64,000 bases of DNA, from IMG/VR virus record IMGVR_UViG_3300032116_000057, positions 1 through 64,000 of that record; one strand, given 5' to 3'. Made by a program: the position numbers and the translations under genes. Below the pieces are notes generated by a model that was not told the DNA's origin, searched no databases, and worked only from the letters and a program-made list of their open reading frames with translations. How positions within the stretch are numbered: position 1 is the stretch's first letter; each line of letters starts with the position of its first letter. Shown here in pieces: positions 23,379 through 37,504 of this stretch. This DNA is from a virus.

Positions 23379-23900
23379 TTACGGTGCGACGTAAGCGTAT
23401 TTGACAAGAGCAACAGACGCACCAAGGTTTGCAACTGTCGCAGCTGCTGGTGTCTGGGTCTTGACAAGTCCATCGTTTTCTGCAGTTGCTCCAGATGCAG
23501 TTGTAGTAACTGCGCCTTTAACAAAGCCAGCTGCAACAAGTGCAGAGTTAGCTGCGGATTCAGAAAGACCAACAACGTTTGGAAGCGCTGCCTGATCTGT
23601 AGTATCCAAGTATGGGGCTTCTGGAGTGTAATCTGGATAACCGTTCCAGTTGTTTAGAGCAACGCTGTGGTTGTTCCCAACTGAAGATGTTAATCCACCG
23701 CTAAGTGTTACATCGATAGCGGTCTTTGTAAGAGCAGGGCTTGCCTTCTTTGAGTAGCCGCTCCATTGCTTATTCTGCGTTGCATTGTTTGCAACGATTA
23801 CTGTTGCGTTTCCGTCTCCGGTACGCTCAGTATCAGGTTGCATCGGTAGGTTACCCCACACGAAGTCAACCTTGATGTTGCCTGATGTGTCTAGTGCCAT
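23379..23900 (-). CDS. PASTA-domain protein
   Basis: LPNVVGLSESAANSALVAAGF..G.V..QTPAA..G.SV.L. Confidence 0.8.
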   Translation of the reverse strand: MALDTSGNIKVDFVWGNLPMQPDTERTGDGNATVIVANNATQNKQWSGYSKKASPALTKTAIDVTLSGGLTSSVGNNHSVALNNWNGYPDYTPEAPYLDTTDQAALPNVVGLSESAANSALVAAGFVKGAVTTTASGATAENDGLVKTQTPAAATVANLGASVALVKYAYVAP

Positions 23901-23962: not shown

Positions 23963-24529
23963 TCAGGCCATCTGTATGTATGTATATATTTTTCCACCAG
24001 AATAGATATCGTGTTTGCAGGCAATCTCAATAGATTTCTTTAAAATCTTCTCAGCAGCCTCAGGAGTTTTCACAGTTGAGTAGTTTAGTGCCTCCATAGC
24101 CCCAAGAGCTACATCCCCACCACTGCCAGCATAGTAAACGCGGCGGGCCTCTCGATCCCAAGAGTAATCGTTAAATATCGGATATATCACTCCACGAACA
24201 ACAATAAGCAAGTTAGAGTCTTGCCAAGCAGAGTCGCCATCTTCTTTACCATCATAGCCAGCCTCAATAAAAGCTTTACGCATTGAAGGAATAAAACGGC
24301 GGGTGATGAAGTGATCTAAATTATCACTAGATCGGGGTTTGGGAGCTTTCCAACCAAGTTGCGCAATGTTGCCACCTCGGGATGCACCAGATACTGCAAT
24401 TAAAGTTCCATTGTTCTCTATGATCTTAGAGTTTGCTAATTCCATATAACGACCACCTTCATCAGATGCTCGTGAATCGCAACCTATTACGGCCCAACCG
24501 TCACCTTGTATTGCAGCAAGTGTTGTCAT
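23963..24529 (-). CDS. Proteasome beta/HslV-like Ntn-hydrolase
   Basis: N-terminal MTT, DSRAS, KI, AGSGG..ALGA, DIYSGG. Confidence 0.85.
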   Translation of the reverse strand: MTTLAAIQGDGWAVIGCDSRASDEGGRYMELANSKIIENNGTLIAVSGASRGGNIAQLGWKAPKPRSSDNLDHFITRRFIPSMRKAFIEAGYDGKEDGDSAWQDSNLLIVVRGVIYPIFNDYSWDREARRVYYAGSGGDVALGAMEALNYSTVKTPEAAEKILKKSIEIACKHDIYSGGKIYTYIQMA

Positions 24530-24603
24530 TTAAGCCCTTCAGACTTTCGCGGGGGCCCGGGGTGGTGTAATACACCCTACAGGCTACGACAATCCTACCA
24601 GAG

Positions 24604-25074
24604 CTAGCGACCTTCTTCGCTACCGTACTGCATATTCTCAGCTGGCTTGCGGGGGAGCATGCCAGGTTGGTTAGTTACATCTTCCCAGGGGATATCATCA
24701 ATGCCGGAATACTTCAAGTATTTGCCTGTGGAGTCAGATACTCGTAGATCTTCCCACATATCGACTGGGATGGGCTCTGAGTACATGATCCACTTACCAT
24801 CCCTAAAGATGATTACTAAGGTCTCTGTGCTCCTGTTATAGCCCATTACACGGGCTCTAGGAAAGCTCATATTAGTCGTAGGAGCAACAACTACCTCATA
24901 CCCTGGTCCAAATGGGTTATAGCCTGCATTTCCCTGATCAAGCAGGTTTGTAGGGGCGCCCATGCGATCCGCGATAGCTTGTTGTATATTAAAAGTTCTC
25001 TGGCCTTGTTGCTCTTCCGCCTCTTGCCTACGACGAAAATAGCTTGAATCTGTATTCATATTACGTCTGGCCAT
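24604..25074 (-). CDS. KTSC-domain protein
   Basis: MGYN...ETLVIIFRDG...Y...P...WEDL..SDSTGKY. Confidence 0.7.
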   Translation of the reverse strand: MARRNMNTDSSYFRRRQEAEEQQGQRTFNIQQAIADRMGAPTNLLDQGNAGYNPFGPGYEVVVAPTTNMSFPRARVMGYNRSTETLVIIFRDGKWIMYSEPIPVDMWEDLRVSDSTGKYLKYSGIDDIPWEDVTNQPGMLPRKPAENMQYGSEEGR

Positions 25075-25185
25075 GAAAAATATGATACTCCCCCGGCTAC
25101 TGCCTGAAATGCTAAGACCCTGGAGTTATCCGGCCACTGCCTTGTGTTTTAGGTCGTAGCAGTTTGTTTTACCTGCCCGAAAGGT

Positions 25186-25213
25186 GGGAAGTTGGGGCGC
25201 TAAGGGTGGGGGG
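25186..25213 (+). other. Canonical G-quadruplex-forming motif at divergence point
   Basis: GGG-aagtt-GGGG-cgctaa-GGG-t-GGGGGG. Confidence 0.45.
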
Positions 25214-25265
25214 TGGCAAATCGATTTCTAAGGGGGTCGGTTCAGCAAACGCCAAAAGTTCAGGT

Positions 25266-25348
25266 TAGGTAGCCCTACTGCGTGGAGCACCTCGACAGCA
25301 TTTGTAGCATTGGTCGGGGTGCTCACTAGCCTATACACCTCGTATAGG
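25266..25348 (+). ncRNA. Structured leader of first early gene
   Basis: gagcacctcgac/gtcggggtgctc (G-U) and cctatac/gtatagg hairpins. Confidence 0.45.
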
Positions 25349-25369
25349 TGAAGACAGAAAGGATTTGAG

Positions 25370-25876
25370 ATGAAATCTCAAATAGAACTACTTCGCGACA
25401 TGGTTGCTGGCTCTACTACTCTCGTTATTGAGAATGTAGCCTCCGCCTTTACAAGCGAACTCGTTACCCACCCCAACTACCTTCTCCCTGAGAAGCCAAA
25501 CGCTTCCCAGCGTGGTCGTGCGTGGGCGGGTTATTACAACTCATTAGGCGTTAGTGCTGAGTTCCTAAAGACCAACATTACGCTTATCGGTCGTTATTTC
25601 GAGCGCATTGATGTTAGTGACCCAACTACTATCCTTGCTCAACTCGACGCTTTCCGTAAGGAAGACCTCGCTTCTAAGTTATTGAAGCAGAAGCAAAAGG
25701 AAGCCGACGGGTCAGCACTTACCTCCCGTTTGGAGAACTTGTCCGAAGTAATCAAAGAAATCGAGGAAAACCTCATTTCGCCAACTACCACGCAAAAGCA
25801 AGCGTATGCCGAAGCGTTGGATAGATTGACGGCACTACAAGAGTCATTCATGGCGAAAGAGTTAGCAGTAGCGTAA
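25370..25876 (+). CDS. First early gene, hypothetical helical protein
   Basis: AGAAAGGA SD; 168 aa. Confidence 0.75.
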   Translation: MKSQIELLRDMVAGSTTLVIENVASAFTSELVTHPNYLLPEKPNASQRGRAWAGYYNSLGVSAEFLKTNITLIGRYFERIDVSDPTTILAQLDAFRKEDLASKLLKQKQKEADGSALTSRLENLSEVIKEIEENLISPTTTQKQAYAEALDRLTALQESFMAKELAVA

Positions 25877-25880
25877 TAAT

Positions 25881-25896
25881 CGTGATGTAAATCACA
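25881..25896. promoter_or_regulatory. CRP/GlxR-like binding site
   Basis: CGTGA-tgtaaa-TCACA matches (T/C)GTGA-N6-TCACA. Confidence 0.45.
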
Positions 25897-25924
25897 TGGC
25901 AGGGGGAGTCTAGGCTCTCCCTGC

Positions 25925-26076
25925 CCCTATCTATGCTCATAGTTAGCATTTGGCTACTGCTTCTAGCGAACTCTCATCATTGAGAGTAAGAGCAGGTCTA
26001 GAGATTACCGCTTTCGCTATTAGCAGATAGTTCGCCTACTCCGATAGTCGGCGGATAACTATGGGTATAGATAGGG
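25925..26076 (+). ncRNA. Candidate structured ncRNA A (152 nt)
   Basis: 21-bp closing stem 25925-45/26056-76 with two G-U; inner ggcta-ctgct-tagcgaa/ttcgcta-agcag-tagtt and ctctca/tgagag. Confidence 0.7.
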
Positions 26077-26194
26077 AGTGACCTAAACAATGCGAATTGC
26101 CTTTATTGGTAAGAGTAGCCTTGTCGGTCTGCTTTTCTCCCTTCGTATGTAGGCTACCTAAACCTTATCTTGTGTCTTCTGTCTAAGTAGAGAG

Positions 26195-26235
26195 CACGCC
26201 CCCGCCGACCCCTTTCATTTGTCGGTTGGGGCGTG
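26195..26235 (+). ncRNA. GC-rich hairpin with C/U-rich loop
   Basis: cacgcccc-c-gccgac / gtcggt-t-ggggcgtg, loop ccctttcattt. Confidence 0.5.
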
Positions 26236-26246
26236 TATCTCTATAC

Positions 26247-26366
26247 CTTATGGCTTAGAGCATACATAGGAAGAACCCCCTTTCCTGTCGGCTATAACAC
26301 TTGGGTTTACACCTTTCTACCCTTGTTGGAACAACGCCTATTCCTGTGTATGCTCTTGGCTATAAG
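26247..26366 (+). ncRNA. Candidate structured ncRNA B (120 nt)
   Basis: 26-position closing stem (one U-U, three G-U) cttatggct-t-agagcatacataggaa / ttcctgtgtatgctct-t-ggctataag, ending in the next SD. Confidence 0.65.
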
Positions 26367-26379
26367 AAAGGAGGTCGTT

Positions 26380-26589
26380 ATGCCAAAAGGCACGACTAAT
26401 AGCCAACGCAAGAATGGTAAAGCGTTCAAGAAGAACCCTGGACCAGCCCAACCCCCAAAGACTAACTTCACCCATGTAAATGGGCGTAGCCCTGAGGCTC
26501 ATGCTAAGCGTGAGGCTTGGAAAGCCATTGGCGGTAGAGCAGATAGTAATCACATTCCCCATTGGAAGACAGGAGTAGTCAATGCTTGA
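26380..26589 (+). CDS. Small basic early protein
   Basis: AGAAAGGAGG SD then MPKGTTNSQRK.. Confidence 0.75.
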   Translation: MPKGTTNSQRKNGKAFKKNPGPAQPPKTNFTHVNGRSPEAHAKREAWKAIGGRADSNHIPHWKTGVVNA

Positions 26590-26716
26590 GTTTGTTTTAT
26601 TTGGCGGTGCTGTATGTATCGCCTATCTTACAATCCTCAATCTTATTCGCCTTCGTCGGTATAACCGAGAGCGCATTGAGAGAGTTGAACCGGGTCTTTA
26701 TGACCTAACTGACTAA
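26582..26716 (+). CDS. Small single-pass membrane protein
   Basis: Manual ORF MLEFVLFGGAVCIAYLTILNLIRLRRYNR.., AGGAG SD. Confidence 0.65.
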   Translation: MLEFVLFGGAVCIAYLTILNLIRLRRYNRERIERVEPGLYDLTD

Positions 26717-26766
26717 TGTAATGACCAACAAGGTCCCCGCGAAGTTTTTGCTGCGCAATGGGGAAG

Positions 26767-26821
26767 AGCCCCTTCAATTTATAGTTGCTCGACTATAAGT
26801 TGAAGGGGCTTATTTTTTTTT
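26767..26821 (+). terminator. Strong intrinsic terminator ending first early unit
   Basis: 20-bp stem agccccttcaatttatagtt/gactataagttgaaggggct then T9. Confidence 0.85.
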
Positions 26822-26874
26822 GTTTTTCCCCGACTTTCCCCATAAGATGAAGAACTAACAGAAAGGAGAACACA

Positions 26875-27141
26875 ATGGAGGATTCAAATCCTGTCGTATC
26901 TGTTATTAGATGCGGAACCATTTTACAAGGTAAGGGTGTATCTGAAGGAGCGACAGTCTTGTTATTCAAGCCTGTTCAAAACGATCCAATGAACACAATT
27001 ATCTTGTGCCATGCACCTATGTCTACACATCACCCCTATGTTGTATGGACATACAACGAAATTACAGGCTCTTGTTCAACAGGAGATTATTTCGACAACC
27101 AAGTTGAAGCAGCAGAAAGATTTGCTGGGAGGACTTGGTAA
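26875..27141 (+). CDS. Hypothetical early protein
   Basis: AGAAAGGAG SD; PYVVW...GDYF....A...F motif. Confidence 0.7.
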   Translation: MEDSNPVVSVIRCGTILQGKGVSEGATVLLFKPVQNDPMNTIILCHAPMSTHHPYVVWTYNEITGSCSTGDYFDNQVEAAERFAGRTW

Positions 27142-27353
27142 TGAAAACACAACTAGAAATAAAAGCCTCTGTTGAAGGTGAGATTAGCCTTCAGCAGCTG
27201 GCTTTTATACATTCTAAGTTAGAAGCGGAGATACACCGCTTTCTTGTATCAATAATAACAAATAAGCAAATCAAGGGAGAACCATGCTCTGTGACTCATG
27301 TGGTGAGCCAGTTGCCCCAGAAAGATGGGACCTTGGCTACACCTATTGCATGA
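27141..27353 (+). CDS. Hypothetical early protein
   Basis: TAATG coupling, GGAGG SD. Confidence 0.5.
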   Translation: MKTQLEIKASVEGEISLQQLAFIHSKLEAEIHRFLVSIITNKQIKGEPCSVTHVVSQLPQKDGTLATPIA

Positions 27354-27490
27354 AGAAACAATGCTTCAATAATCGCCCATCAGAACTAACCGAACGCATG
27401 TGTTTGATACTAGTTCCTAAACAGGGCTACACAATAGTAAATAAAACAGACCCTTTTGTTTACACAGGGGGTAGGTCAAGTGGAAGATAG
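27284..27490 (+). CDS. DksA/TraR-like C4 zinc-finger protein
   Basis: CDSCGEPVAPERWDLGYTYC....C. Confidence 0.55.
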   Translation: MLCDSCGEPVAPERWDLGYTYCMKKQCFNNRPSELTERMCLILVPKQGYTIVNKTDPFVYTGGRSSGR

Positions 27491-27567
27491 TTGGACAGGG
27501 CATCACAGGCTTTCCTGTGTTGCTCTGTCTGTCTGTGTTTCATAACACAGGCAGAAGAAAGGCAAAC

Positions 27568-28314
27568 ATGGAAGTTGAAAATGAAAACAAACTTCCTACG
27601 TTAGCAGAGGTAGAACGTGAGTTCTTGAATGGTCGTTCGTATGGTTGGTCTCGTAGATCAATTAGTGAATACCATAAAGTTTCTGCAACAAGCGAATGGT
27701 ATAAATACCGAAACTATCTTCTAGAGTATCCCGGAACGTTGAAGGATGAAGATGTTAATTGGTGTATTAAAACTATTGGTTGCGGCAAACGTCATAGATC
27801 AGACACCTTGTTGCTTTATCGTATTGTTCCTTTAGATTACGTAAGAGAAAAGAGTTACAACTTTTCTTGGACTTCTCGTTTTGCGAGAGATGAAGAAAAC
27901 GATTGCTTCTACGAAATAAGTAGAATAGAAGCACGTTTTTTTATTGAAGAAGGAGCGTCTACGTATGACAAGCACTTTGCTGCGTGGCATAGAGACAGCA
28001 TGATGAAAGCCCATGGACTAGTAAAAGAAAGGAAGGTGACAGAAGAAATGTGTCCAAAAGGATGTCGCCCATCGTATTGCTATTGCAAACGTGAATGCGA
28101 CGATAAAAACCTCAAATATGAAATAAATGAGCATAGTATGGAAGTCGAAGTAACGGTCGGGTTCCGCACTATTTCATTGACTCTTGATGAGGCAGCAGAA
28201 TTAGCCTCATTCTTGGCAACAGCCAAAGAAGAAATCAAGAAGAAGAAAATTGCTGCGTTAGAGGCACAGCAAGACGAACTCAAGAAGCAACTTGAATCAG
28301 TAAAAGGTATGTAA
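27568..28314 (+). CDS. Hypothetical early protein
   Basis: AGAAAGG SD before MEVENENK; preceded by two hairpins 27493-27552. Confidence 0.7.
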   Translation: MEVENENKLPTLAEVEREFLNGRSYGWSRRSISEYHKVSATSEWYKYRNYLLEYPGTLKDEDVNWCIKTIGCGKRHRSDTLLLYRIVPLDYVREKSYNFSWTSRFARDEENDCFYEISRIEARFFIEEGASTYDKHFAAWHRDSMMKAHGLVKERKVTEEMCPKGCRPSYCYCKRECDDKNLKYEINEHSMEVEVTVGFRTISLTLDEAAELASFLATAKEEIKKKKIAALEAQQDELKKQLESVKGM

Positions 28315-28403
28315 ATCTTCCGCACACACGAATAGGCTATCCATGAGAGGTAGATGTGTGGTTGGTCTTTTTAGTCGGTTACCTGAGGTAATAACGCGAC
28401 TCG

Positions 28404-28435
28404 TCACCTAAGCATGTGAAGGGATAAACTGCTTA
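28404..28435 (+). ncRNA. Small H-type pseudoknot motif, copy 1
   Basis: tcac-CTAAGCAT-gtga..AAAC-TGCTTA; loop taagca pairs with tgctta. Confidence 0.65.
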
Positions 28436-28459
28436 TCAACTACAAAAGAAAGGACACAA

Positions 28460-28825
28460 ATGCACGAAGGTAGAACAATCATGGATTATCCCGATGTGGA
28501 TAGTTTCTTTGATGATGTTGAACAAAACATGAAAGATAATGCTATTCCTGGGTTCAAGTTTTATCGTCTTTATGACCCATACAACGGCCGAGGTTTTGCG
28601 TTTCACTTTACAACCAAGGCTAAATATGATTATGGTTTTGAAATCATGCTTGGATTTACAGACAGTTTATTCAAGTTAGATTTGGATTTATCAACTCCAT
28701 TTGATGCTCGTTCATGGAATACAAAAGGTAACGAAGAGTCTGACCATTTGTATCCATTGCATCAAATTGGATTCAAAATCGCTGCATTCTTTACGCAGTT
28801 TTCTGTTGCTTTCAACAGACAGTAA
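28460..28825 (+). CDS. Hypothetical early protein
   Basis: AGAAAGGA SD. Confidence 0.7.
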   Translation: MHEGRTIMDYPDVDSFFDDVEQNMKDNAIPGFKFYRLYDPYNGRGFAFHFTTKAKYDYGFEIMLGFTDSLFKLDLDLSTPFDARSWNTKGNEESDHLYPLHQIGFKIAAFFTQFSVAFNRQ

Positions 28826-28975
28826 TTCCGCCTAGTAGATGCATGCATCGAAAGGAAGGGAGTCGTAACCAACGACTATAAATAAGGGGTAAACGGGAAT
28901 GGGAATTGCCCGGCTACCAATAAGTGCGTTACATTCCTATTACAGACAGTAATAGATGTTATTGCATGGGGCGAA
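28826..28975 (+). ncRNA. Candidate multi-stem ncRNA C
   Basis: cgcct/gggcg closure, agtcgt/acgact, ggta-cggg/cccg-tacc, acat-ctattac/gtaatag-atgt. Confidence 0.45.
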
Positions 28976-28979
28976 TGCC

Positions 28980-29013
28980 TGAGTCCTGAGCATGACTCAC
29001 TAAAAACTGCTTA
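28980..29013 (+). ncRNA. Small H-type pseudoknot motif, copy 2
   Basis: tgagtc-CTGAGCAT-gactca..AAAAAC-TGCTTA. Confidence 0.65.
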
Positions 29014-29019
29014 TAGATT

Positions 29020-29288
29020 CTTGGAGACACATTGAATAGGCTGTTGATTATCACCGAGAGCTGAGTATGTATTCGGGAGACTATGTCTGAATACAAAGGG
29101 GGCGAAGAAGCATAAGGGTACGAACTATGGGGTCAGAGGCACCCAGTGGGTCACGTTAGTCCTCCCATAATGAGCGTAGATGCATAGTAAGAGACGCGAC
29201 CGAGACTATGTATGTAATTCTACAACGCAACAGAGGCCACGTTGTGAGTCTCACGATAATACCTTCAGTAATTCAATGTGTTTCCAAG
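29020..29288 (+). ncRNA. Candidate large structured ncRNA D (269 nt)
   Basis: 18-bp closing stem 29020-37/29271-88 (one G-U); internal attatc/gataat, tgtattcgg/ctgaataca, tatggg/cccata, gtaga-tgcatagt/actatgta-tctac, caacg/cgttg; no long ORF. Confidence 0.7.
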
Positions 29289-29295
29289 TTCAAGT

Positions 29296-29430
29296 TGGAT
29301 GGCAGCACGAACACTGCGTGTTCACGATTGTCCATACCCAATAACTGGGCTAGCAGTCTAATCTAGTCCGCCAATGTAGATGTCAAAGTTTACATTGGCA
29401 CGCTCGTGTTATCCATAGTGGGTAGCACGT
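29296..29430 (+). ncRNA. Tandem hairpin array
   Basis: gaacac/gtgttc, gggctag/ctagtcc, gccaatgtag/ttacattggc, cgtgttatcca/tgggtagcacg. Confidence 0.5.
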
Positions 29431-29445
29431 GGCAGAAAGGCACAC

Positions 29446-29739
29446 ATGATACTGAGAAAGAAGAAAGTTCTCAAACTGATTGAAGACATGATGCTTCGTT
29501 CTGAGATAGATGCTCAGGACTTAGACGACATGCACAGTCGTGCCTACCACTCTGGAGTCATTGACGGAATGGGAGACATTCTCTATGCTCTATCACCAAA
29601 TAGAGCAAGAAGGTTCCCCATTTCTATTCATTGGTTCGAAGAAGACGAGCAAGTATCCAAAAAAGAACTTGCCCGCATTCGAGAAGCAGAGAGGGAACGC
29701 ACGTTCGAGTATCTCAATCGTGAGAAAGAGGTAATCTAA
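29446..29739 (+). CDS. Hypothetical early protein
   Basis: AGAAAGG SD. Confidence 0.7.
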   Translation: MILRKKKVLKLIEDMMLRSEIDAQDLDDMHSRAYHSGVIDGMGDILYALSPNRARRFPISIHWFEEDEQVSKKELARIREAERERTFEYLNREKEVI

Positions 29740-30452
29740 TGATTATCAATACCTATCAAGAAGCGGTCGACTGGTTAGCAGGCGGTCGCAAAAAGTGGGA
29801 ACGCCCACTTTACACTCGTGGACTACGGCTTCGCAAAACCCAAGCAAATCCAAAAGACATCGAAGTCTTTTATCCTTGGACTAATCAAGCAGTTGTCGTA
29901 TTCCATCCAGATGACACAATAACAATACAGGCTGGACTTGGACGAACAAGGTGGGGTGGGTATTACAACCCCCTCTATTCTTGGAGTGTTCGAGAAGTAA
30001 TTCGAATGTATTCAGGAATTACTAGTTTGTATCAAAGAAACAATAAGTTTCACATTGTGTTAGCTGATGCAACAAGAAAACCACCAAAGATACAAAAGTG
30101 CAGGCGCTGTCATGGCGCTGGACTTGTCGATGGCTATTGCACTATTCCGTATTGTCATTCGCTGGGCTCTGAAGAGTGCGATAAAACAACTCTCATGCCC
30201 GCTACAATTTCAAAACTGAATGGCGGATGGCACAGACACAAGTGTGTTCATGGTTTAAGTACAAACCATTACACAACAAAAACAGAGAAGTGCTTTGGTT
30301 GTAACGGTTATGGTAAGAAAGACTATGGCAGTCAGTTAGTAACTATGCTATGGGACGGAACACCTTTGCGATTACAACACGGCACTCTTGTTAATAACAA
30401 ACCAAGCGAACTAGAGAAAGCGATAGCAGCATATGTCCCAAACATCAGTTGA
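29739..30452 (+). CDS. Hypothetical protein with DnaJ-like CxxCxGxG zinc-binding repeats
   Basis: CRRCHGAG and CFGCNGYG. Confidence 0.65.
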   Translation: MIINTYQEAVDWLAGGRKKWERPLYTRGLRLRKTQANPKDIEVFYPWTNQAVVVFHPDDTITIQAGLGRTRWGGYYNPLYSWSVREVIRMYSGITSLYQRNNKFHIVLADATRKPPKIQKCRRCHGAGLVDGYCTIPYCHSLGSEECDKTTLMPATISKLNGGWHRHKCVHGLSTNHYTTKTEKCFGCNGYGKKDYGSQLVTMLWDGTPLRLQHGTLVNNKPSELEKAIAAYVPNIS

Positions 30453-30996
30453 GTTTGATCCGATAACTTCTGGAGTTCAAATCTATGAATTACCTTTGAA
30501 CAATCCAGAAACATCATCAGCTCAAGAACTTGTAACGGAATGCACTAACATCATTGTCTACAGCAATACTATGCCTAAAGGTTTTGTAGCATTGTCTGAA
30601 GCAAGCAAGTCATTTCGTGAAGCAGTAACAGCAGAAATCATTACAGAAGTATTGGAGTCAGTAAATAATGGCAACGATACCGCTATTGATGATTTGTTTT
30701 ACACTTTTGCCGCATGGTTAAGAAGCACACCAGATGGAAGCAGCACGCTCAAAACTCTTACAGAGTATGCAGCGTCAATTGCTTTTGCTTTGGAACGCAA
30801 AGACTTTGCAGTAAAAGTAATCAAACGCTCTAAACCAGCGGAAGTAGGCGCAACCATTTGGACTATTGTTGATGCGATAAAGAAAGGCATGCCTGGAGTT
30901 ATCTATCAACAATTAGTTTTAAACAACAAATTGGTAGCAATGCACACGCTGAATGCAGCAAAAGAAAATGGACAACTCAGTCTATTTCTAAAGTAG
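30433..30996 (+). CDS. Hypothetical helical protein
   Basis: Operon ORF. Confidence 0.6.
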   Translation: MSQTSVEFDPITSGVQIYELPLNNPETSSAQELVTECTNIIVYSNTMPKGFVALSEASKSFREAVTAEIITEVLESVNNGNDTAIDDLFYTFAAWLRSTPDGSSTLKTLTEYAASIAFALERKDFAVKVIKRSKPAEVGATIWTIVDAIKKGMPGVIYQQLVLNNKLVAMHTLNAAKENGQLSLFLK

Positions 30997-31008
30997 AAAG
31001 GTAGAACC

Positions 31009-31305
31009 ATGTCATACTTTGATAAGTTCAACATGGACGACTTCATCAATAACAATAAAGATGAAGGAAATTGTGAACACGATGACTGCAGTTCATTGGT
31101 GGACACAGCCAGAATAGTAATGTCTCATTTACGAGATAATTACGGCGATAGAGAGCACAAGGAAATGATTCCCGCCTGTGTTATCTGCGTTACGTTCCAC
31201 ATTGCCAACATGATGGGTATAACGATAGCCCTTCGTCACCCAGAAGAGTTGCCCCTTGAACTGAGACGATCAGTTCTTGCGGAAGAATTCCCCGACCCAT
31301 TCTAA
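31009..31305 (+). CDS. Hypothetical protein
   Basis: AGAAAGG SD; CEHDDC..CVIC. Confidence 0.65.
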   Translation: MSYFDKFNMDDFINNNKDEGNCEHDDCSSLVDTARIVMSHLRDNYGDREHKEMIPACVICVTFHIANMMGITIALRHPEELPLELRRSVLAEEFPDPF

Positions 31306-31314
31306 ATAGGGTTA

Positions 31315-31560
31315 TGTATGACGAGAAGCACTCGAGGTTACTGAGACCCTTGCCCCAACAGCTAAAATCAACCTAATCTATAGATGAACGGACCAGAGGT
31401 GAACCCAAGACCTTGTTTCGATACACCACGTGGAACTATCCAAATGACTCCCTAAAGGAGAGTGTGCTAACGAACATGCAGTTGTCTTGTCCAAAAGTCG
31501 CAGAGGTTGTGATGCTAAGTAGCGCTCAAGTCTCCCCCTCCTTCGTGCGTAACTCATACA
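31315..31560 (+). ncRNA. Candidate large structured ncRNA E (246 nt)
   Basis: Nested pairings tgtatga/tcataca, gcac/gtgc, gagg/cctc, gagac/gtctc, caacct/aggttg, ggac-caagac/gtcttg-tcc, actc-cct/agg-gagt. Confidence 0.6.
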
Positions 31561-31596
31561 AAACAACAGGTGGTTAGCATATGCACCCACCTTACA

Positions 31597-31774
31597 CAGG
31601 AGACAGAGGCGAGCGTGGGTTCCCTGATACATGGGGAAATCCGACTAAAATTATCGCAGCCAGTCCTTTCCGCATTGAAGGTTAATGCGAAGGCGCACGG
31701 TTCTTCATCACCGATGAAGCTAAGTTGATAGGCCTATCGGCATGTATTTATACCCCACGCCCTCTGTTCTCTTG
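31597..31774 (+). ncRNA. Candidate rod-like ncRNA F (178 nt)
   Basis: caggaga-cagagg-gcgtggg / cccacgc-cctctg-tctcttg, atacatg/catgtat, ccga/tcgg, cgcatt/aatgcg, cttcatc/gatgaag. Confidence 0.65.
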
Positions 31775-31784
31775 CACATAGATT

Positions 31785-31824
31785 TCCGGCACGGTGCCGG
31801 AGACTGTAAGCAAATTGCTTACAG
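31785..31824. repeat. Two adjacent perfect inverted repeats
   Basis: tccggcac-g-gtgccgga and ctgtaagcaa-a-ttgcttacag. Confidence 0.7.
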
Positions 31825-31856
31825 CAACGAATCCACATACCGAGAAGGGGTAGGAA

Positions 31857-33263
31857 ATGGATATCGCTATATTCACAGAATCCTACGAGCCAATAATGGG
31901 AACGAAACGCCGTCAAGTTCTTGTTACGCCACATGGCGAGCTCGTACGAATCTATACACGGGTCACTGATGGGACTAAGGGTCCTCACAATAAATGGGAG
32001 GAAACTGAATACGACACACTCGTGGGACAGATCGGCACAGCCGAGCAACTTACACGAACTCCAGTCGGCGTATATGTTACGCCTGCTGATGAGCGTGCTA
32101 TGACTGACAAGGGTTATTCCCCTGTCTTGGGCACTAAAGCGTGTCAGGCTCATACCAAAGCAACACTATCTACAGATACTTTGAGTAATATCCTTCCGGA
32201 TATTTACTCACAAGTAAGCGAGCGCGATGATTCACTCGATGACTATGTTCTCGATAATCGTCGTCAAGCTGGCTCTGTAGTTCCGGTGGCAATGGGGGCT
32301 GTGCCAACACAAACAATCGCCACGCCAATCGAATCAACACCTGTGGTAACACCGACACCAGCGTATGTTGCGCTAGCAGTCGTGCCACCAATGGAGTTGG
32401 CTAAAAAGTATGTGCATAGGCAGGTATTTGGCAAAGAAGACTTTGCTATCTACGACTATGCCCGTTCTAACAACATCAACGTGCTTCTATACGGTCCAAC
32501 AGGTCCCGGCAAGACAACATCTGTCGAAGCTTGGGCTGCTGAACGTATGCTCAGACTTGCGTTGGTATCTGGCAATGCATCATTGGAGCCAAGCCAAATG
32601 TTTGGCAAAATGACTCAGATTGATGGCAAGTGGGTTTGGATTGATGGTCCAGTCACCGATGTTATTCGCAACGGTGGTGTGTTGCTCCTCGACGAGGTCA
32701 ACTTCATCAACCCTAAAATCTACACAACTCTATACACATTGTTGGCAGGACAGCGTTCGATATCACTACTAGATCACATGGGTGAAGTAATCAAGGCTCA
32801 TAAAGACTTGACTATCTTTGCAACAATGAATCCAGATTATATCGGCACTACACCGCTCAACTTCGCGTTTCGTAATCGCTTTGATATCCAAATTCCTTGG
32901 GATTACGATGACAAGGTCGAGTCTAAATTGGTTAGTTCCAAGTCTCTGTTGAATCTTGCTAAGCAACTTCGCGTTGAAGCTGCTAAAGGTCAATACGAAA
33001 CCCCAATCTCAACCAATATGTTGATTGAGTTCGTTCAGTTCGTGGGTGACTTGAGTTATGAGTTTGCAGTTGAAAACTTCATCGCTCACTTTTCCCCAGA
33101 AGAAGCAGCGTCAGTTCGCCTTATCTTCCAAACTCACGAACACAACATTAAGACTGACTTCGGTATAGAAGTGCCTGTCACTGTTACACAGCCTGAAGAA
33201 TCGTTAACTCCTGAACAAGAACTTGAACAGTGGGTTAATGGTTTTGTCCCAACTTCTGTTTAG
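31857..33263 (+). CDS. MoxR/CbbQ-type AAA+ ATPase with N-terminal extension
   Basis: GPTGPGKT, LLLDEVN, ATMNPDYIGT..LN.AFRNRF. Confidence 0.9.
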   Translation: MDIAIFTESYEPIMGTKRRQVLVTPHGELVRIYTRVTDGTKGPHNKWEETEYDTLVGQIGTAEQLTRTPVGVYVTPADERAMTDKGYSPVLGTKACQAHTKATLSTDTLSNILPDIYSQVSERDDSLDDYVLDNRRQAGSVVPVAMGAVPTQTIATPIESTPVVTPTPAYVALAVVPPMELAKKYVHRQVFGKEDFAIYDYARSNNINVLLYGPTGPGKTTSVEAWAAERMLRLALVSGNASLEPSQMFGKMTQIDGKWVWIDGPVTDVIRNGGVLLLDEVNFINPKIYTTLYTLLAGQRSISLLDHMGEVIKAHKDLTIFATMNPDYIGTTPLNFAFRNRFDIQIPWDYDDKVESKLVSSKSLLNLAKQLRVEAAKGQYETPISTNMLIEFVQFVGDLSYEFAVENFIAHFSPEEAASVRLIFQTHEHNIKTDFGIEVPVTVTQPEESLTPEQELEQWVNGFVPTSV

Positions 33264-33274
33264 AAAGGATAAAC

Positions 33275-35239
33275 ATGCCATTGATTGATGGACTGAGAGA
33301 TGAAGAAAACTCTTGGTATATCAAGGAGGCTAGGGATGAAGATTTGCAGGAACGTGCACTACAACTAGGAACTCTATGTCGTGTGTATGAACAAGCAGAT
33401 CGTGTTCTAACTGGCGATCCGATTGTTGTGAATGTTGTAAATCAAGGCCCGGCTCCAGCCTGGTCTGACGGTGCAACAATCACATTTAATGCTTCCGAGA
33501 TTCAAGACATGGACTTGGAAACATTGACACAAGTTACCGGCCTCAACTACCATGAGCTTTGTCATCAACTGTATACGCCTCGCAAAGGCACAGAAATGGT
33601 GAAATGGGTTATAGAAAATCAACTTATGGAGAGCATGAATATTCTCGAGGATCAACGAATCGAGACCCTATTTACTGCTCGCTACCCATCTGTTATTCCA
33701 TACCTATCATCTACCTGTGCTCGCTGGCTTTCAGAAGATGAATCAGATGTCTCTGGAACCTATTTGGCGATACGTGGTCGCAGATACTTGCCGGTAGAAG
33801 TTCGAGAAGCATATCGAGATGAGTTTGCTTTTCCAGAACTAATACCTACATTGGCTAGAATCATTGATGAGTATCGGCTGTTAGTATTTCCTCGAGATTA
33901 TGAACGAGCCAAAGAATTGATTCAACAATTCAATGACTATGTTCTACAACCAACAGGAATACTGGACCAAATTAGAGCACAAGTTAGTGCATACAACTAC
34001 AATCCAGAAGATGGTGGATGCACTCTCGGTGGTCCTACAGGCTGTGGGGGTCGTGCTCCCATGGCTAAAGGAAGACCAGAACCTGGCAAAGCACAGGAAC
34101 GTGATGCTGCTCGAGCTAAAGGTCAAGGCGTAGGAGAATCTCCTTACACCTACAAACCAAAAGTAAAAGGAGCCGGTAATCAAAAGCCTAGTGGTAAGCA
34201 AGATAAACCACAAGACGATGATGGAGGTAGTGGTGGTGGAAAAAACATTACAAACCACCGCACTCAAGATGAAGCACTAGATATACGCGAGAGTAATCTA
34301 GATACACCACCAGACATTGGTGTTGGTCATACTCCCAGCGTAGGTGGTGTTCCTAATCACATTGGAAACATGCTAGATGATATTGTCTTTGATACTTTGA
34401 ACAACAAAGATGTTATATCTGACATCAAAGCCAAACAAAAAGTAATTGTTGGTGGCGATGGTAGGTATGAAGATCAAAGTAAACGAGGCAAGTTTGATAG
34501 GACTCAGATTCCTGCAGAAGCAATAGTAAGTTATCGCAAGTTTGCGAAAGAACTACAACGCTTGCGTGATGAATCCGAACCATCATGGATTAGAGAAACT
34601 CCCTCTGGCAAATTAAACTTCAAACGAGTTATGGCTGGGTGTGAACCCGACGTAGCGTTTGATAGATGGGATGAAGGCGATGATGGATGTGACATCGAGG
34701 CTGTTATCTGTGTTGACAGGTCAGGCTCTATGTCATTCCAAAGCAATGATAGAAAGGCATCTATAGCGTGTTGGACTATTAAGCGAGCGTTAGAACACAT
34801 AGGCGCACCAGTTACTGTGTATGCCTTTGATGATCAAAACGAAGTTGCCTACAACAGAGCGGAGAAAGCCGATCGTCTCCAGTATAAGTTTATATACGGT
34901 GACGGCGGAACTAATCCCTATACCGCATTGCTTGAGGCAGAACAATTACTCATGTCCTCACGCAAGAAGAATAAGATGCTGTTCATAATTACTGACGGTG
35001 AGTTTAACCACGACCCTAATGATGATTTGATTGAACGCATCTCTAAGCGAGGTATTCTTACTTCGCTTGTCCTAATCATGGACGCTAAATCATTTGATAA
35101 TCACTACAGCAACAAGGATATGAAGAAGGTAGCCCACAGAACAGAAATCTTTGGTCGTATCTCTCATGCTGGCGAGTTACTATCGTTTGCCAAAGCGGTG
35201 GTAGTTGGTGCTATCAAAAAGCGTTCTCGTAGACGGTAG
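33275..35239 (+). CDS. vWA-domain protein with N-terminal HExxH metallopeptidase-like domain (CobT-like partner)
   Basis: HELCH..NILEDQRIE; MIDAS DRSGSM, GGT, ITDG. Confidence 0.88.
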   Translation: MPLIDGLRDEENSWYIKEARDEDLQERALQLGTLCRVYEQADRVLTGDPIVVNVVNQGPAPAWSDGATITFNASEIQDMDLETLTQVTGLNYHELCHQLYTPRKGTEMVKWVIENQLMESMNILEDQRIETLFTARYPSVIPYLSSTCARWLSEDESDVSGTYLAIRGRRYLPVEVREAYRDEFAFPELIPTLARIIDEYRLLVFPRDYERAKELIQQFNDYVLQPTGILDQIRAQVSAYNYNPEDGGCTLGGPTGCGGRAPMAKGRPEPGKAQERDAARAKGQGVGESPYTYKPKVKGAGNQKPSGKQDKPQDDDGGSGGGKNITNHRTQDEALDIRESNLDTPPDIGVGHTPSVGGVPNHIGNMLDDIVFDTLNNKDVISDIKAKQKVIVGGDGRYEDQSKRGKFDRTQIPAEAIVSYRKFAKELQRLRDESEPSWIRETPSGKLNFKRVMAGCEPDVAFDRWDEGDDGCDIEAVICVDRSGSMSFQSNDRKASIACWTIKRALEHIGAPVTVYAFDDQNEVAYNRAEKADRLQYKFIYGDGGTNPYTALLEAEQLLMSSRKKNKMLFIITDGEFNHDPNDDLIERISKRGILTSLVLIMDAKSFDNHYSNKDMKKVAHRTEIFGRISHAGELLSFAKAVVVGAIKKRSRRR

Positions 35240-35251
35240 AAAGGAGTAACT

Positions 35252-35476
35252 ATGTGCGCAGAAACTATGTGCGTAGTTTGGGATGCTGTGACAGAGACCA
35301 TAATCGGTCCCTTCAATTCACACGATGATGCCCAAATGTTCGTGCTACATGCATCAGACATACTGATTGATGGCAATGTTTCCGAACTAACCATCGAACC
35401 TGTGTCAGACCCACAAGACTGGGCTCTTGACAACGCCTATGACGGTTCGCTATTTTCTACCCAGGAGGCTAACTAA
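35252..35476 (+). CDS. Hypothetical protein
   Basis: AGAAAGGAG SD; IGPFNS..DA motif. Confidence 0.65.
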   Translation: MCAETMCVVWDAVTETIIGPFNSHDDAQMFVLHASDILIDGNVSELTIEPVSDPQDWALDNAYDGSLFSTQEAN

Positions 35477-35637
35477 TGGCTATACCAAAGCAGGAACTAT
35501 ACATGACAGCATACCGGTTCAAAGAACAGGAGGATGCACGTTATGAAGAGGATAAAAAAACAGTTGTTAAACTCTTCATCAAACATAAACAAGAAGACCT
35601 ACTACCAATGTTAGGGTTGGAGGTGAATAATGATTAA
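35476..35637 (+). CDS. Small hypothetical protein
   Basis: Manual ORF MAIPKQEL..DLLPMLGLEVNND; AGGAGG SD. Confidence 0.6.
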   Translation: MAIPKQELYMTAYRFKEQEDARYEEDKKTVVKLFIKHKQEDLLPMLGLEVNND

Positions 35638-35800
35638 CCTTGCAAATATGGAAGAAGTCCAAGCTATTATTAATGATAAGAGTTTAGACTTCGTAGGTGT
35701 AAAGAAAAAGATTGAAACTTTACATCCTGATTACATTGTGTTTAGAACTCCAACAGGAGTATCTGTCCAGCATAAGGATGAGGTGAGTATCGATTGGTAA
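35630..35800 (+). CDS. Small hypothetical protein
   Basis: Manual ORF MINLANMEEV..; GGAGGTG SD. Confidence 0.55.
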   Translation: MINLANMEEVQAIINDKSLDFVGVKKKIETLHPDYIVFRTPTGVSVQHKDEVSIDW

Positions 35801-36252
35801 ACACATTCTTACCTTGGCCTGACATGGAAAGATCAGCTAAGGCTCTAGACAACAAACGATTAGGTAAGCAACGAGTTGAAGCACTGCAGATACTCAGAGC
35901 AAACTTAGGACTAACTAAAGGCTGGAGAAATCATCCGGCTGCGGTTATGTGGCGAGGTCACGAAGGTTATCTATATCTATACACAAATGCTATGTGCATG
36001 GAATGGAGACAACGGGGCTTCGTCGATAATGTTCAAGGTCAGCTTCAAGATATATATGCAAAGTTTGACCTAGAAGGGTGGGAGCCACCGTGGTGGTGGA
36101 ACAACAATGAGTTCCATAAATCTCACCGATCTAATCTCAAACGTAAAGATCCGATTTGGTATCGGTTTCGAGTGCGAGATAACCTGCCGTATAAATGGCC
36201 CAAGCCAGATGGAACTCTGGCAATAACACAAAAGAAGGGAAAAGGTAAATGA
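35794..36252 (+). CDS. Pyrimidine dimer DNA glycosylase / endonuclease V family (MSMEG_6728-like)
   Basis: TFLP..SA..LD..RLGKQRVE.LQI..GWRNHPA..MWRG, SHRSNL.RKDP..Y. Confidence 0.85.
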   Translation: MVNTFLPWPDMERSAKALDNKRLGKQRVEALQILRANLGLTKGWRNHPAAVMWRGHEGYLYLYTNAMCMEWRQRGFVDNVQGQLQDIYAKFDLEGWEPPWWWNNNEFHKSHRSNLKRKDPIWYRFRVRDNLPYKWPKPDGTLAITQKKGKGK

Positions 36253-36286
36253 AACCAATATCAAGAAGAAAAGAAAGAGGAGATTG

Positions 36287-36937: not shown

Positions 36938-36955
36938 CAACAGAAAGGGGTAGCC

Positions 36956-37207
36956 ATGGATAAAGAAATGTACTACAACATAGTTGTATCATTTCATATG
37001 CAAGTTGCAAAATGGCGCGTTGATGACCCCACCAACAAAGATAACTGGGAGTATTCCCTTGAGATCTATGATCGTAATCAAGGTAGGTGGATAAACATCA
37101 ATGACCTTAAAAGACCGGGCGAGTTTAGCTACGTATATGACGTTAAACTCAATCCGGTACAAGAAGTAAAACCTCCGGGAGCACCGGAGGTTCTAGACGG
37201 AGAGTAG
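36956..37207 (+). CDS. Hypothetical protein
   Basis: AGAAAGG SD. Confidence 0.6.
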   Translation: MDKEMYYNIVVSFHMQVAKWRVDDPTNKDNWEYSLEIYDRNQGRWININDLKRPGEFSYVYDVKLNPVQEVKPPGAPEVLDGE

Positions 37208-37241
37208 CCTATTAGAGCTTACTCCGCTAGTATACAGCAGT

Positions 37242-37490: not shown

Positions 37491-37504
37491 GAATAGGAAA
37501 CACA

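What the first reader, a model, noticed from the sequence alone, without database searches (positions are those of the whole stretch)
25140..26821. Palindrome-free leading cassette: probable first-injected anti-restriction unit
Seen (manual scan): between about 25140 and 26685 there is no GATC, AGCT, TGCA, GTAC, GGCC, CCGG, TTAA, ATAT or ACGT. That is 9 of the 16 four-base palindromes, each expected about 6 times by chance and common in the flanking late genes. Some gaps run longer (GTAC to about 29118, GGCC to about 28585, ATAT to about 28115, TTAA to about 27755), so the depletion fades gradually. It starts at the strand switch and covers one transcription unit (three unknown ORFs plus structured RNAs) closed by a 20-bp terminator. 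Established: T5 and T7 deplete restriction sites in first-entering DNA and encode anti-defence factors there. Inference: the physical genome end is near 25.1-25.2 kb, and ORFs 25370-25876, 26380-26589, 26582-26716 and/or RNAs A and B protect the rest of the genome.
Basis: partly seen in the sequence, partly recalled or inferred. Interest (0 to 1): 0.85.

Follow-up and report, generated by a model that had tools for sequence, protein, structure and literature searches.

The report
Restriction-site-free leading end of phage
An uncultured 104-kb lake phage of actinobacteria, like all its relatives, has purged a specific set of four-letter restriction-enzyme words from about 10 kb next to its probable genome end, completely in the first 1.6 kb and less with distance. 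This is the sequence pattern expected of DNA that enters the cell first and must work before host restriction is disarmed.

Summary
Window 25140-26685 lacks exactly the nine listed 4-bp palindromes: about 55 sites expected, none seen, and the next-longest free gap in the genome is 361 bp. This cassette is the head of a 10.4-kb block (25133 to about 35560), the only depleted block in the 104,454-bp genome.

- **Selection, not composition:** permuting synonymous codons gives z = -10 to -11 for block genes and 0 for 21 control genes. Non-coding DNA in the block is depleted too.
- **Specific words:** the avoided words are AGCT, GATC, GGCC, GTAC, TTAA and ATAT. CATG, TCGA, CTAG and interrupted palindromes are not avoided.
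- **Conserved shape:** eleven non-redundant relatives show a step at a conserved non-coding boundary, then gradual recovery over about 11 kb.
- **Genome end:** the genome is collinear with Streptomyces phages BRock and LuckySocke. Their 221- and 344-bp terminal repeats sit at the equivalent strand switch, which supports a physical end near 25.13 kb. This is an inference, because read mapping was not available.
- **Protective factor:** none was identified. ORF1-3 and a conserved, highly structured 503-nt RNA region have no known relatives.

The concept is known from T5 first-step-transfer DNA and from Murciavirus, but T5 and T7 show far weaker positional signals. The scan noted a similar island in another lake phage (e1-5742902).

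The parts
25075..25369 (+). Divergent intergenic boundary with conserved non-coding motifs: GGCTACTGCC (25095), GGCCACTGCC (25132, where depletion begins), TAAGGGTGGGGGGTGG (25200-25216). Candidate genome terminus or short terminal repeat.
   Evidence: Alignment A1 of 11 relatives. Motif counts: GGTGGGGGGT is unique in this genome and in G005, and in BRock occurs only in the terminal repeat. Comparison with the BRock and LuckySocke junctions. The last palindromes before the gap are at 25130/25132.
25370..25876 (+). ORF1, 168 aa, all-alpha, fast-evolving. First gene of the site-free cassette; function unknown.
   Evidence: Shine-Dalgarno sequence plus ATG. Homologues at 28-35% identity in L004 and L005 with 28 invariant residues. 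AF2 mean pLDDT 81. No family or fold match. Zero of the nine words against 13.8 expected by codon permutation.
25877..26379 (+).
   Evidence: MFE -209 against -146 kcal/mol for shuffles, z = -11. Arms I1 and I3. The L005 counterpart has z = -10.4. Sequence is far better conserved with L004 than the neighbouring ORF1. No Rfam or tRNA hit. Zero nine-word sites against 15.9 expected.
26380..26589 (+). ORF2, 69 aa, pI 11.2. Conserved small basic protein, a lineage hallmark.
   Evidence: 87 homologous clusters, all unnamed. Invariant KREAWK..GGR..PHWKTG. AF2 model mostly disordered with one helix.
26582..26716 (+). ORF3, 44 aa, small protein with a hydrophobic N-terminal segment; overlaps ORF2 by 8 nt.
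   Evidence: 70% identical counterpart in the same arrangement in L004.
26766..26821 (+). Intrinsic terminator (20-pair stem, then a T-run) closing the first transcription unit.
   Evidence: (I5). Equivalent strong hairpin plus T-run at +1.7 to +2.0 kb from the boundary in L004, L005, L006 and L019.
26822..35560 (+). Second tier of the depleted block: small, variable unknown genes, then conserved genes including an AAA_5 ATPase (31857-33263), a VWA protein (33275-35239) and an acidic 74-aa protein (35252-35476). Depletion fades with distance.
   Evidence: Pfam. Synteny. The maximum-likelihood right edge is 35560, and genes from 35476 onward are not depleted.

Best explanation
Window 25133 to about 35560 is the leading end of a linear, non-permuted phage genome with a short terminal repeat, as in its Streptomyces-phage relatives. 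This end enters the actinobacterial host first, and all its genes read inward, away from the end. While this DNA is exposed and host restriction enzymes are still active, any recognition site in it is lethal. Selection has therefore removed the words cut by common 4-bp type II enzymes: AGCT, GATC, GGCC, GTAC and TTAA, plus ATAT and, more weakly, ACGT and TATA. Removal is total in the first transcription unit (25133-26821: ORF1, structured RNA, ORF2, ORF3, terminator). It weakens over the next 9 kb or so, in proportion to how long each segment is exposed before an early phage function neutralises restriction or the rest of the genome follows. Shown: the depletion, its specificity, its origin in selection, its uniqueness in the genome, its conservation and graded shape in relatives, the co-orientation of the genes, and the collinearity with phages that have terminal repeats at the equivalent junction. 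Inferred: that restriction enzymes are the selective agent, that this end enters first, that entry is staged or progressive, and that a product of the block protects the remaining 94 kb, which carries these words at normal density.
For: - **Magnitude and uniqueness:**. Five core words occur at 4.5 per kb inside the block against 18.5 per kb outside.
- **Selection at DNA level:** codon permutation gives z = -10.2 to -11.2 for block genes against 0 for controls. Non-coding parts have 22 sites against 66.9 expected, while control intergenic DNA has 179 against 184.
- **Word specificity typical of type IIP enzymes:** 8 of the 9 most avoided of 136 4-mers are palindromes. Fourteen interrupted 5-nt palindromes, and CATG, CTAG, TCGA and TGCA, are not avoided.
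- **Position is what is conserved, not gene content:** every relative has one block at the same place. The pooled profile is 1.0 upstream, then 0.35, 0.26, 0.41, 0.56 ... 0.70, then 0.84-0.90. Meanwhile the leading genes are hypervariable or shuffled, and GTAC avoidance varies between lineages from 0.2 to 0.9.
- **Genome end:** the genome is collinear with BRock (TerL 52%, capsid 73%, portal 54%). BRock's 221-bp and LuckySocke's 344-bp exact terminal repeats lie at the equivalent divergent junction, next to an 11-12 kb block of small genes reading away from the end. There is a shared boundary motif. BRock has a near-consensus inward promoter at 663-691.
- **No self-methylation route:** no DNA methyltransferase family was found in the genome.
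- **Precedent:** only motifs in the early-injected region matter in Murciavirus, and an EcoRI site in the T5 first-step-transfer region confers sensitivity (PMC12455610).
Against: - Termini were not mapped, and the terminal-repeat argument rests on relatives with only about 52% TerL identity.
- The boundary similarity to BRock is a single 14-nt motif; the overall local alignment is not significant (p about 0.07).
- Contig ends of relatives do not pile up at the boundary.
- BRock itself shows no depletion of 4- or 6-bp palindromes in its terminal block, so the architecture does not by itself produce the signal.
- Tier 2 still holds 47 core sites, each in principle cleavable, so protection there can only be kinetic.
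- ATAT has no known cognate enzyme (my knowledge). AT-only words in general are about 35-40% rarer in the block, so a second pressure may be contributing.
- No anti-restriction homologue was found.
- The host and its restriction enzymes are unknown.
Confidence: 0.6

Rival explanations
1. Restriction-proof bootstrap unit without staged entry. The whole genome enters at once, but an early operon that cannot be cut still expresses functions such as end protection, ligation or recombination, or restriction shut-off. These rescue cut genomes or co-infecting genomes, so selection against sites is concentrated on the earliest-needed genes and weakens with time of need.
For: The same data on depletion, specificity and gradient fit this reading. 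The right edge of depletion coincides with a gene boundary and a promoter-like site at 35427-35456, which suggests a transcription or temporal class rather than a physical limit. Tier 2 is only partly depleted.
Against: A double-strand cut anywhere normally inactivates a linear genome. The sharp step lies in non-coding DNA at the conserved boundary element, not at a start codon. Non-coding DNA upstream of ORF1 is also site-free. The architecture matches phages whose physical end is at that very junction.
Confidence: 0.15
2. The block is a collapsed long terminal repeat (T5- or SPO1-type, about 10 kb) that holds pre-early host-takeover genes and is transferred in a discrete first step.
For: The block is about 10% of the genome, like the 10.2-kb T5 repeat that comprises the first-step-transfer DNA. 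The T5 first-step-transfer region shows a weak depletion of the same kind (AGCT 25 against 55, GTAC 14 against 30). Metagenome assemblers collapse such repeats.
Against: Cultured collinear relatives have 221- and 344-bp repeats, not 10 kb. There are no A1/A2/dmp homologues. No repeat-rich stop signal lies at the right edge. The profile is graded rather than a plateau.
Confidence: 0.1
3. The words are avoided for a reason other than host restriction. Candidates are escape from the phage's own DNA-modifying enzyme (the PHROG 'queuine tRNA-ribosyltransferase'-like protein), from AT-binding xenogeneic silencers of actinobacteria (Lsr2-type), or from spurious promoters, so that host RNA polymerase can read the early block at once.
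For: A phrog_887 protein is encoded at 40168-41661. The scan reported word-free early cassettes in DpdA-carrying phages (e1-5769485, e1-5988923). AT-only words (AAAA, TAAA, AAAT, AATT, TATA) are also rarer in the block, and the first 1.5 kb has a higher G+C content (0.48).
Against: The most avoided words are G/C-containing palindromes together with TTAA. A guanine modifier cannot explain TTAA or ATAT, and an AT-binder cannot explain AGCT, GATC, GGCC or GTAC. Palindromy itself points to dimeric type II enzymes. No dinucleotide is banned. The TGT-like label is unverified: there is no Pfam, NCBIfam or PDB match.
Confidence: 0.08
4. Mosaic origin or assembly artefact: the block was recently acquired from a phage with genome-wide palindrome avoidance, or the contig is chimeric.
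For: The block's word usage differs from the rest of the genome: CATG and TCGA are relatively enriched.
Against: The same block sits in the same context in more than ten independent assemblies whose proteins are 52-80% identical. G+C content and order-2 expectations are like the rest of the genome. A gradient anchored at a conserved boundary is not expected from gene transfer.
Confidence: 0.03

Closest known systems
First-step-transfer (pre-early) DNA of phage T5 and other Tequintavirus
   Same: About 8-10% of a roughly 100-120 kb genome at one end, full of small unknown early genes, enters first. Restriction sites there decide sensitivity while sites elsewhere are tolerated (PMC12455610; PMC8594841; T5 record).
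   Different: In T5 the region is a 10.2-kb terminal repeat with an injection stop signal and the A1/A2 proteins. Here the relatives have repeats of a few hundred bp, there are no A1/A2 homologues, and no stop-signal repeats were found. T5's 4-mer depletion is weak (0.79-0.94), against 0.0-0.4 here, and it is not graded. The host here is an actinobacterium.
Leading end of T7 and Murciavirus (Autographiviridae): transcription-coupled entry with early anti-restriction
   Same: Short terminal repeat, defined ends, early genes all reading away from the entering end, and selection against restriction motifs concentrated in the early-injected part (PMC12455610).
   Different: In T7 the whole genome is co-oriented; here only the first 12 kb or so is. 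There is no Ocr or SAM-hydrolase homologue. The documented case concerns one type I motif, not a set of 4-bp palindromes. T7 shows no positional 4-mer effect. The relatives here are contractile-tailed (BRock sheath gene).
Genome-wide restriction-site avoidance in phages (Rusinov et al. 2018, PMC6286503)
   Same: Under-representation of short palindromic type II sites maintained by selection.
   Different: Here the avoidance is local, about 10% of the genome, and graded. The other 90% carries the same words at expected frequency.
Leading regions of conjugative plasmids (PMC11541004; PMC13478746)
   Same: The first DNA to enter carries anti-defence genes and is under special selection. It is also G+C-richer.
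   Different: Plasmid leading regions were reported as not consistently depleted in 4-8 bp palindromes (PMC13478746 abstract). Plasmid DNA enters single-stranded.
Streptomyces phages BRock (Borockvirus) and LuckySocke
   Same: Collinear genomes: TerL 52%, capsid 73% and portal 54% identity. Both have WhiB and an 11-12 kb block of small genes reading away from one end, with everything else on the other strand.
   Different: There is no sequence similarity within the block, the G+C content is 52%, they carry tRNA arrays, and their terminal block shows no palindrome depletion. LuckySocke has an ArdA-like gene beside its block, which is absent here.

Membership tests
Phage restriction-site (short palindrome) avoidance | Palindromic type II-like words under-represented against Markov and codon-preserving nulls | tested here: met
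   Observed/expected 0.38-0.75. Codon permutation z = -10 to -11 against 0 in controls. Non-coding DNA is also depleted.
Phage restriction-site (short palindrome) avoidance | Avoidance is word-specific, not a general compositional effect | tested here: met
   Eight of the 9 most avoided of 136 4-mers are palindromes. CATG, CTAG, TCGA, TGCA and 14 interrupted palindromes are not avoided.
Phage restriction-site (short palindrome) avoidance | The avoided words are recognition sites of the host's restriction-modification systems | not testable with these tools
   The host is uncultured and unnamed. Only an actinobacterial host can be inferred (WhiB; actinophage relatives).
T5-type first-step-transfer DNA | Lies at the genome end that enters first | tested here: inconclusive
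   Collinear cultured relatives have their ends at the equivalent junction, and there is a shared boundary motif. Read termini were unavailable. Entry polarity was not tested.
T5-type first-step-transfer DNA | Contained in a long (about 10 kb) terminal repeat | not testable with these tools
   No read depth is available. Relatives have 221- and 344-bp repeats, which argues against a long repeat.
T5-type first-step-transfer DNA | A1/A2 DNA-transfer proteins and a repeat-rich injection stop signal | tested here: not met
   tblastn with T5 A1, A2 and dmp finds nothing better than E = 0.16. There is no repeat cluster at the right edge.
T7-type transcription-coupled entry with a leading anti-restriction gene | Leading genes all co-oriented, reading away from the entering end | tested here: met
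   All called genes from 25370 to 37786 are on the + strand, and the flanks are on the - strand.
T7-type transcription-coupled entry with a leading anti-restriction gene | Host-type promoters just inside the end | tested here: inconclusive
   No sigma-70 consensus match in 25075-25369, but actinobacterial promoters are not covered by that scan. BRock has an 11-of-12 match at 663-691.
T7-type transcription-coupled entry with a leading anti-restriction gene | Ocr, ArdA or another known anti-restriction protein among the first genes | tested here: not met
   No Ocr or ArdA homologue. ORF1-3 have no family or fold match.
Borockvirus-like actinophage genome architecture | Homologous and collinear head, tail and replication modules, with WhiB | tested here: met
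   Forty-two ORFs match BRock in the same order and on the same strand. WhiB has Pfam E = 4e-18.

The most novel reading that the evidence does not exclude
The two-tier profile records a checkpointed injection in an actinobacterial contractile-tailed phage. Only the first 1.7 kb or so, up to the very strong terminator, is exposed to fully active restriction. Its products are a fast-evolving helical protein, a conserved basic disordered protein and a conserved, highly structured 0.5-kb RNA. These would form a new, possibly RNA-containing, broad shut-off of type II restriction that licenses entry or survival of the rest of the genome. Graded palindrome depletion would then serve as a sequence-only readout of genome ends, injection polarity and exposure time for uncultured phages.
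Probability: 0.15. Interest if true: 0.85.

Novelty: new variant of a known kind. Interest (0 to 1): 0.62.

Why it matters
A positional rule, that restriction acts hardest on the DNA that enters first, was shown experimentally only for T5 and, in 2025, for one type I motif in Murciavirus. That paper notes that bioinformatic surveys ignored site position. A 2026 survey of plasmid leading regions found no consistent palindrome depletion.

This lineage gives a strong natural example, much stronger than T5 or T7 analysed the same way. It involves several 4-bp words, a sharp origin at a conserved non-coding element, and a gradient over about 11 kb. The lineage is abundant in lakes and infects uncultured actinobacteria.

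If the reading holds, three things follow:
- Genome ends, injection polarity and relative exposure time could be read from sequence alone in uncultured phages.
- The avoided words predict which restriction specificities dominate in the host populations.
- The site-free first cassette is a focused place to look for a new general anti-restriction function, which is also the unsolved part of T5 biology.

Tried and rejected
- **Contig ends as proxies for termini:** the end overlaps of G002 (87 bp) and G005 (123 bp) lie at different genome places. Contigs carrying the boundary motif do not end at it. G001 and G002 break 1-2 kb inside the block, which is more likely a consequence of hypervariability.
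- **DNA search of phage records:** no match.
- **Relatives of ORF1:** none by pattern scan and only two clusters in the protein collection.
- **ORF1 structure:** a confident helical model, but Foldseek found nothing at E <= 0.001, and VIA-align gave only generic coiled-coil rows at Z < 8. The ESM Atlas returned only viral hypothetical proteins.
- **ORF2:** mostly disordered model. The only PDB profile hits are to the uL4 loop at E about 0.5, which is not significant.
- **RNA and gene families:** no Rfam or tRNA hits in 24-38 kb. Pfam, PHROG and NCBIfam gave nothing for the small block genes.
- **Fold stability across the block:** the whole block folds only slightly more stably than controls, so 'an array of structured RNAs' is supported only for 25877-26379.
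- **6-bp palindromes:** their depletion is explained by the embedded 4-mers.
- **Boundary against the BRock junction:** the local alignment is not significant beyond the 14-nt motif.
- **The 50-52 kb dip:** composition, not selection.
- **DpdA idea:** the phrog_887 label could not be verified.
Full report
**What the sequence is.** The window is bases 1-64000 of a 104,454-bp IMG/VR virus record that CheckV rates as complete. It encodes a T4-type large terminase, an SPP1-type portal, class II ribonucleotide reductase, WhiB and SpoVS-like proteins. The closest cultured relatives are actinophages: TerL is 52% identical to that of Streptomyces phage BRock, and the AAA_5 ATPase is closest to Brevibacterium and Gordonia phages. 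With 43% G+C, a WhiB gene and many lake-metagenome relatives, the host is most likely a freshwater actinobacterium; this is an inference. The contig begins inside collagen-like repeats, so its ends are assembly breaks.

**Checking the observation.**
- About 55 sites are expected from the density outside the block, so P(0) is about 8e-25.
- The free gap (25132-26690, 1558 bp) is four times longer than any other in the genome.
- For the five most affected words (GTAC, AGCT, TTAA, GATC, GGCC), the gap 25132-26983 spans 1851 bp against a mean spacing of 52 bp.

**The true extent.** A sliding order-2 Markov analysis of the whole genome shows one depleted block only.
- Observed/expected is 0.38 at 25-27 kb, climbs to about 0.75 at 35 kb, and is 0.85-1.1 elsewhere.
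- The maximum-likelihood edges are 25133 and 35560. The five core words occur at 4.5 per kb inside and 18.5 per kb outside.
- Within the block, GTAC occurs 3 times against 36.6 expected, AGCT 15 against 64, TTAA 17 against 69.5 and GATC 16 against 43. CATG and TCGA are relatively enriched.

**Selection, not composition.**
- Permuting synonymous codons within each gene keeps protein sequence and codon usage. It gives 348 palindromes against 555 expected (z = -11.2) for block genes. For the five core words it gives 582 against 582 (z = 0) in 21 control genes.
- Depletion stops between the genes at 35252-35476 and 35476-35637. The dip at 50-52 kb is not significant.
- Non-coding stretches of the block are depleted as well (22 against 66.9), unlike intergenic DNA elsewhere (179 against 184). 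The constraint therefore acts on the DNA.

**Word specificity.**
- Under the codon-permutation null, 8 of the 9 most avoided of all 136 strand-symmetric 4-mers are palindromes.
- Avoidance specific to the block concerns AGCT, GATC, GGCC, GTAC, TTAA and ATAT, and more weakly TATA and ACGT.
- AATT and CGCG are avoided genome-wide.
- CATG, CTAG, TCGA, TGCA and fourteen interrupted 5-nt palindromes are not avoided.
- Loss of 6-bp palindromes is accounted for by the embedded 4-mers.
- A defined subset of uninterrupted 4-bp palindromes is what dimeric type IIP enzymes would select against (AluI-, MboI-, HaeIII-, RsaI- and MseI-like specificities, from my knowledge). AT-only words in general are somewhat rarer in the block, so part of the ATAT and TATA signal may have another cause.

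**Relatives.**
- Twenty-five IMG/VR loci encode the block's AAA_5 ATPase at 52-80% identity, mostly on contigs of about 100 kb. Every one shows the same profile.
- Three relatives read in full have a single depleted block, at the same place.
- Flanking genes (HslV-like, KTSC-domain) and the distal block genes are conserved. The first 4 kb or so is hypervariable or shuffled.
- The intergenic boundary carries conserved non-coding motifs: two GGCYACTGCC repeats and TTAAGGGTGGGGGGTG.
- Aligned at that boundary, eleven non-redundant genomes give a pooled nine-word observed/expected of 1.0 upstream. It is 0.35 and 0.26 in the first two kilobases, then 0.41, 0.56, 0.56, 0.60, 0.66, 0.71, 0.64, 0.69 and 0.70, and 0.84-0.90 beyond 11 kb.
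- AGCT is avoided everywhere, while GTAC avoidance varies between lineages from 0.2 to 0.9.
- What is conserved is therefore the position and shape of the depletion, not the gene content. This rules out recent gene transfer or a chimeric assembly.

**Where the genome ends.**
- Reads could not be obtained, and contig ends are uninformative.
- The genome is collinear with BRock over head, tail and replication modules: 42 ORFs match in the same order and on the same strand.
- BRock's record has an exact 221-bp terminal repeat, and LuckySocke's has a 344-bp one.
- In both, the ends lie at the single divergent strand switch. On one side is the minus-strand region upstream of the terminase. On the other is an 11-12 kb block of small unknown genes reading away from the end.
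- The only equivalent place here is 25.1 kb.
- The motif TAA(G/A)GGT(G/A)GGGGGT lies about 27 nt inside the left end of both cultured repeats. It is unique in this genome (25200-25216) and in G005, and it is conserved among the relatives. On its own this similarity is weak (p about 0.07 for the local alignment).
- A candidate end at 25132, the G of GGCCACTGCC, would coincide exactly with the last palindrome before the gap. This is an inference.

**The first cassette.**
- ORF1 (168 aa) is real: its homologues share 28 invariant residues. It evolves fast. The AF2 model is helical with mean pLDDT 81 and has no informative structural match.
- The 503-nt spacer 25877-26379 folds far more stably than shuffles (z = -11). 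Its counterpart in L005 does the same (z = -10.4). It is much better conserved with L004 than ORF1 is. It has no Rfam match.
- ORF2 (69 aa, pI 11.2) belongs to a well-conserved unnamed family of 87 clusters and is predicted to be largely disordered.
- ORF3 (44 aa) is conserved with L004.
- A 20-pair terminator closes the unit. A similarly strong terminator lies 1.7-2.0 kb from the boundary in four relatives.
- No Ocr, ArdA, T5 A1/A2 or DNA methyltransferase was found anywhere in the genome. The claim that these products protect the genome therefore remains untested.

**Controls with model phages.** Analysed the same way, T7 shows mild avoidance everywhere and no positional effect. The T5 first-step-transfer repeat shows only a weak one: 0.79-0.94 against about 0.97, with AGCT 25 against 55 and GTAC 14 against 30. 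BRock shows none. The signal in this lake lineage is thus much stronger than in the textbook cases.

**Literature.** Site position is known to matter for an EcoRI site in the T5 first-step-transfer region and for a type I motif in Murciavirus. The authors of the Murciavirus study stress that surveys of avoidance ignored location (PMC12455610; PMC8594841; PMC6286503). Plasmid leading regions were reported as not consistently depleted in short palindromes (PMC13478746). Within this scan, a similar restriction-site-free early island was noted in another lake phage (e1-5742902). Other word-free early cassettes were noted in phages with guanine-modifying enzymes. I did not test those.

**Interpretation.** The best reading (confidence about 0.6) is as follows. 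The block is the leading end of a non-permuted genome. It is transcribed inward and is exposed to active type II restriction before the rest of the genome is exposed or protected. The first transcription unit tolerates no sites, and tolerance rises with distance. Whether entry is stepwise (T5-like), transcription-coupled (T7-like), or simultaneous with a restriction-proof early unit cannot be decided from sequence. The co-orientation and the gradient favour progressive entry. What protects the other 94 kb is unknown.

**Verdict.** This is a new and unusually clear variant of a known principle.

Noticed in passing
window 40168-41661 (-): A 497-aa lineage-core protein matches PHROG 887 'queuine tRNA-ribosyltransferase' (E = 1.5e-52) and BRock gp36. 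It has no Pfam, NCBIfam or PDB sequence match, and none of the 120 best homologues listed (of 1571 found) carries a Pfam domain. A DpdA-like DNA-modifying role is possible but unverified.
   Followed up: partly
window 23963-25074 (-): The two genes next to the presumed genome end are an HslV-like peptidase (73-87% conserved in most relatives, about 45% in the most distant) and a KTSC-domain protein. A PASTA-domain protein lies just beyond them (23379-23900).
   Followed up: no
window 35427-35456 (+): A sigma-70-like site (TTGACA, 18 nt, TATTTT) lies exactly where the depletion ends. The same-strand genes after it (35476 onward, including a DenV-like glycosylase) are not depleted. This may mark a different temporal class. 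It is only a consensus match.
   Followed up: no
window 25952, and L005 around 5118: The boundary motif GGCTACTGC recurs inside the structured non-coding region, in this genome and in L005. This hints at a shared protein- or RNA-binding site.
   Followed up: no
whole genome outside 25133-35560: AATT and CGCG are avoided genome-wide under the codon-permutation null (z = -6.6 and -3.9). TCGA and CATG are rarer outside the block than inside it. The two compartments therefore have different avoidance spectra.
   Followed up: partly
window 55374-55652 (-) and 57965-58330 (-): A SpoVS-like protein (Pfam E = 2e-27) and a WhiB regulator (E = 4e-18) are encoded in the phage. A second ORF (67881-68213, outside the window) also matches BRock's WhiB gene.
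   Followed up: partly
window 1-40 and 7090-9294 (-): The contig starts inside GGTCCT-type collagen repeats. A 734-aa protein carries eight collagen triple-helix stretches. This is the likely reason for the assembly break.
   Followed up: no
OR725497.1 (LuckySocke) 101870-102541, locus L055: The cultured relative carries an annotated ArdA-like anti-restriction gene just outside its terminal small-gene block. The lake phage has no ArdA.
   Followed up: partly
window 49411-52137 (+): A 908-aa ORF on the minority strand has no match in Pfam or PHROGs. It has a low palindrome count, which codon permutation attributes to composition.
   Followed up: partly
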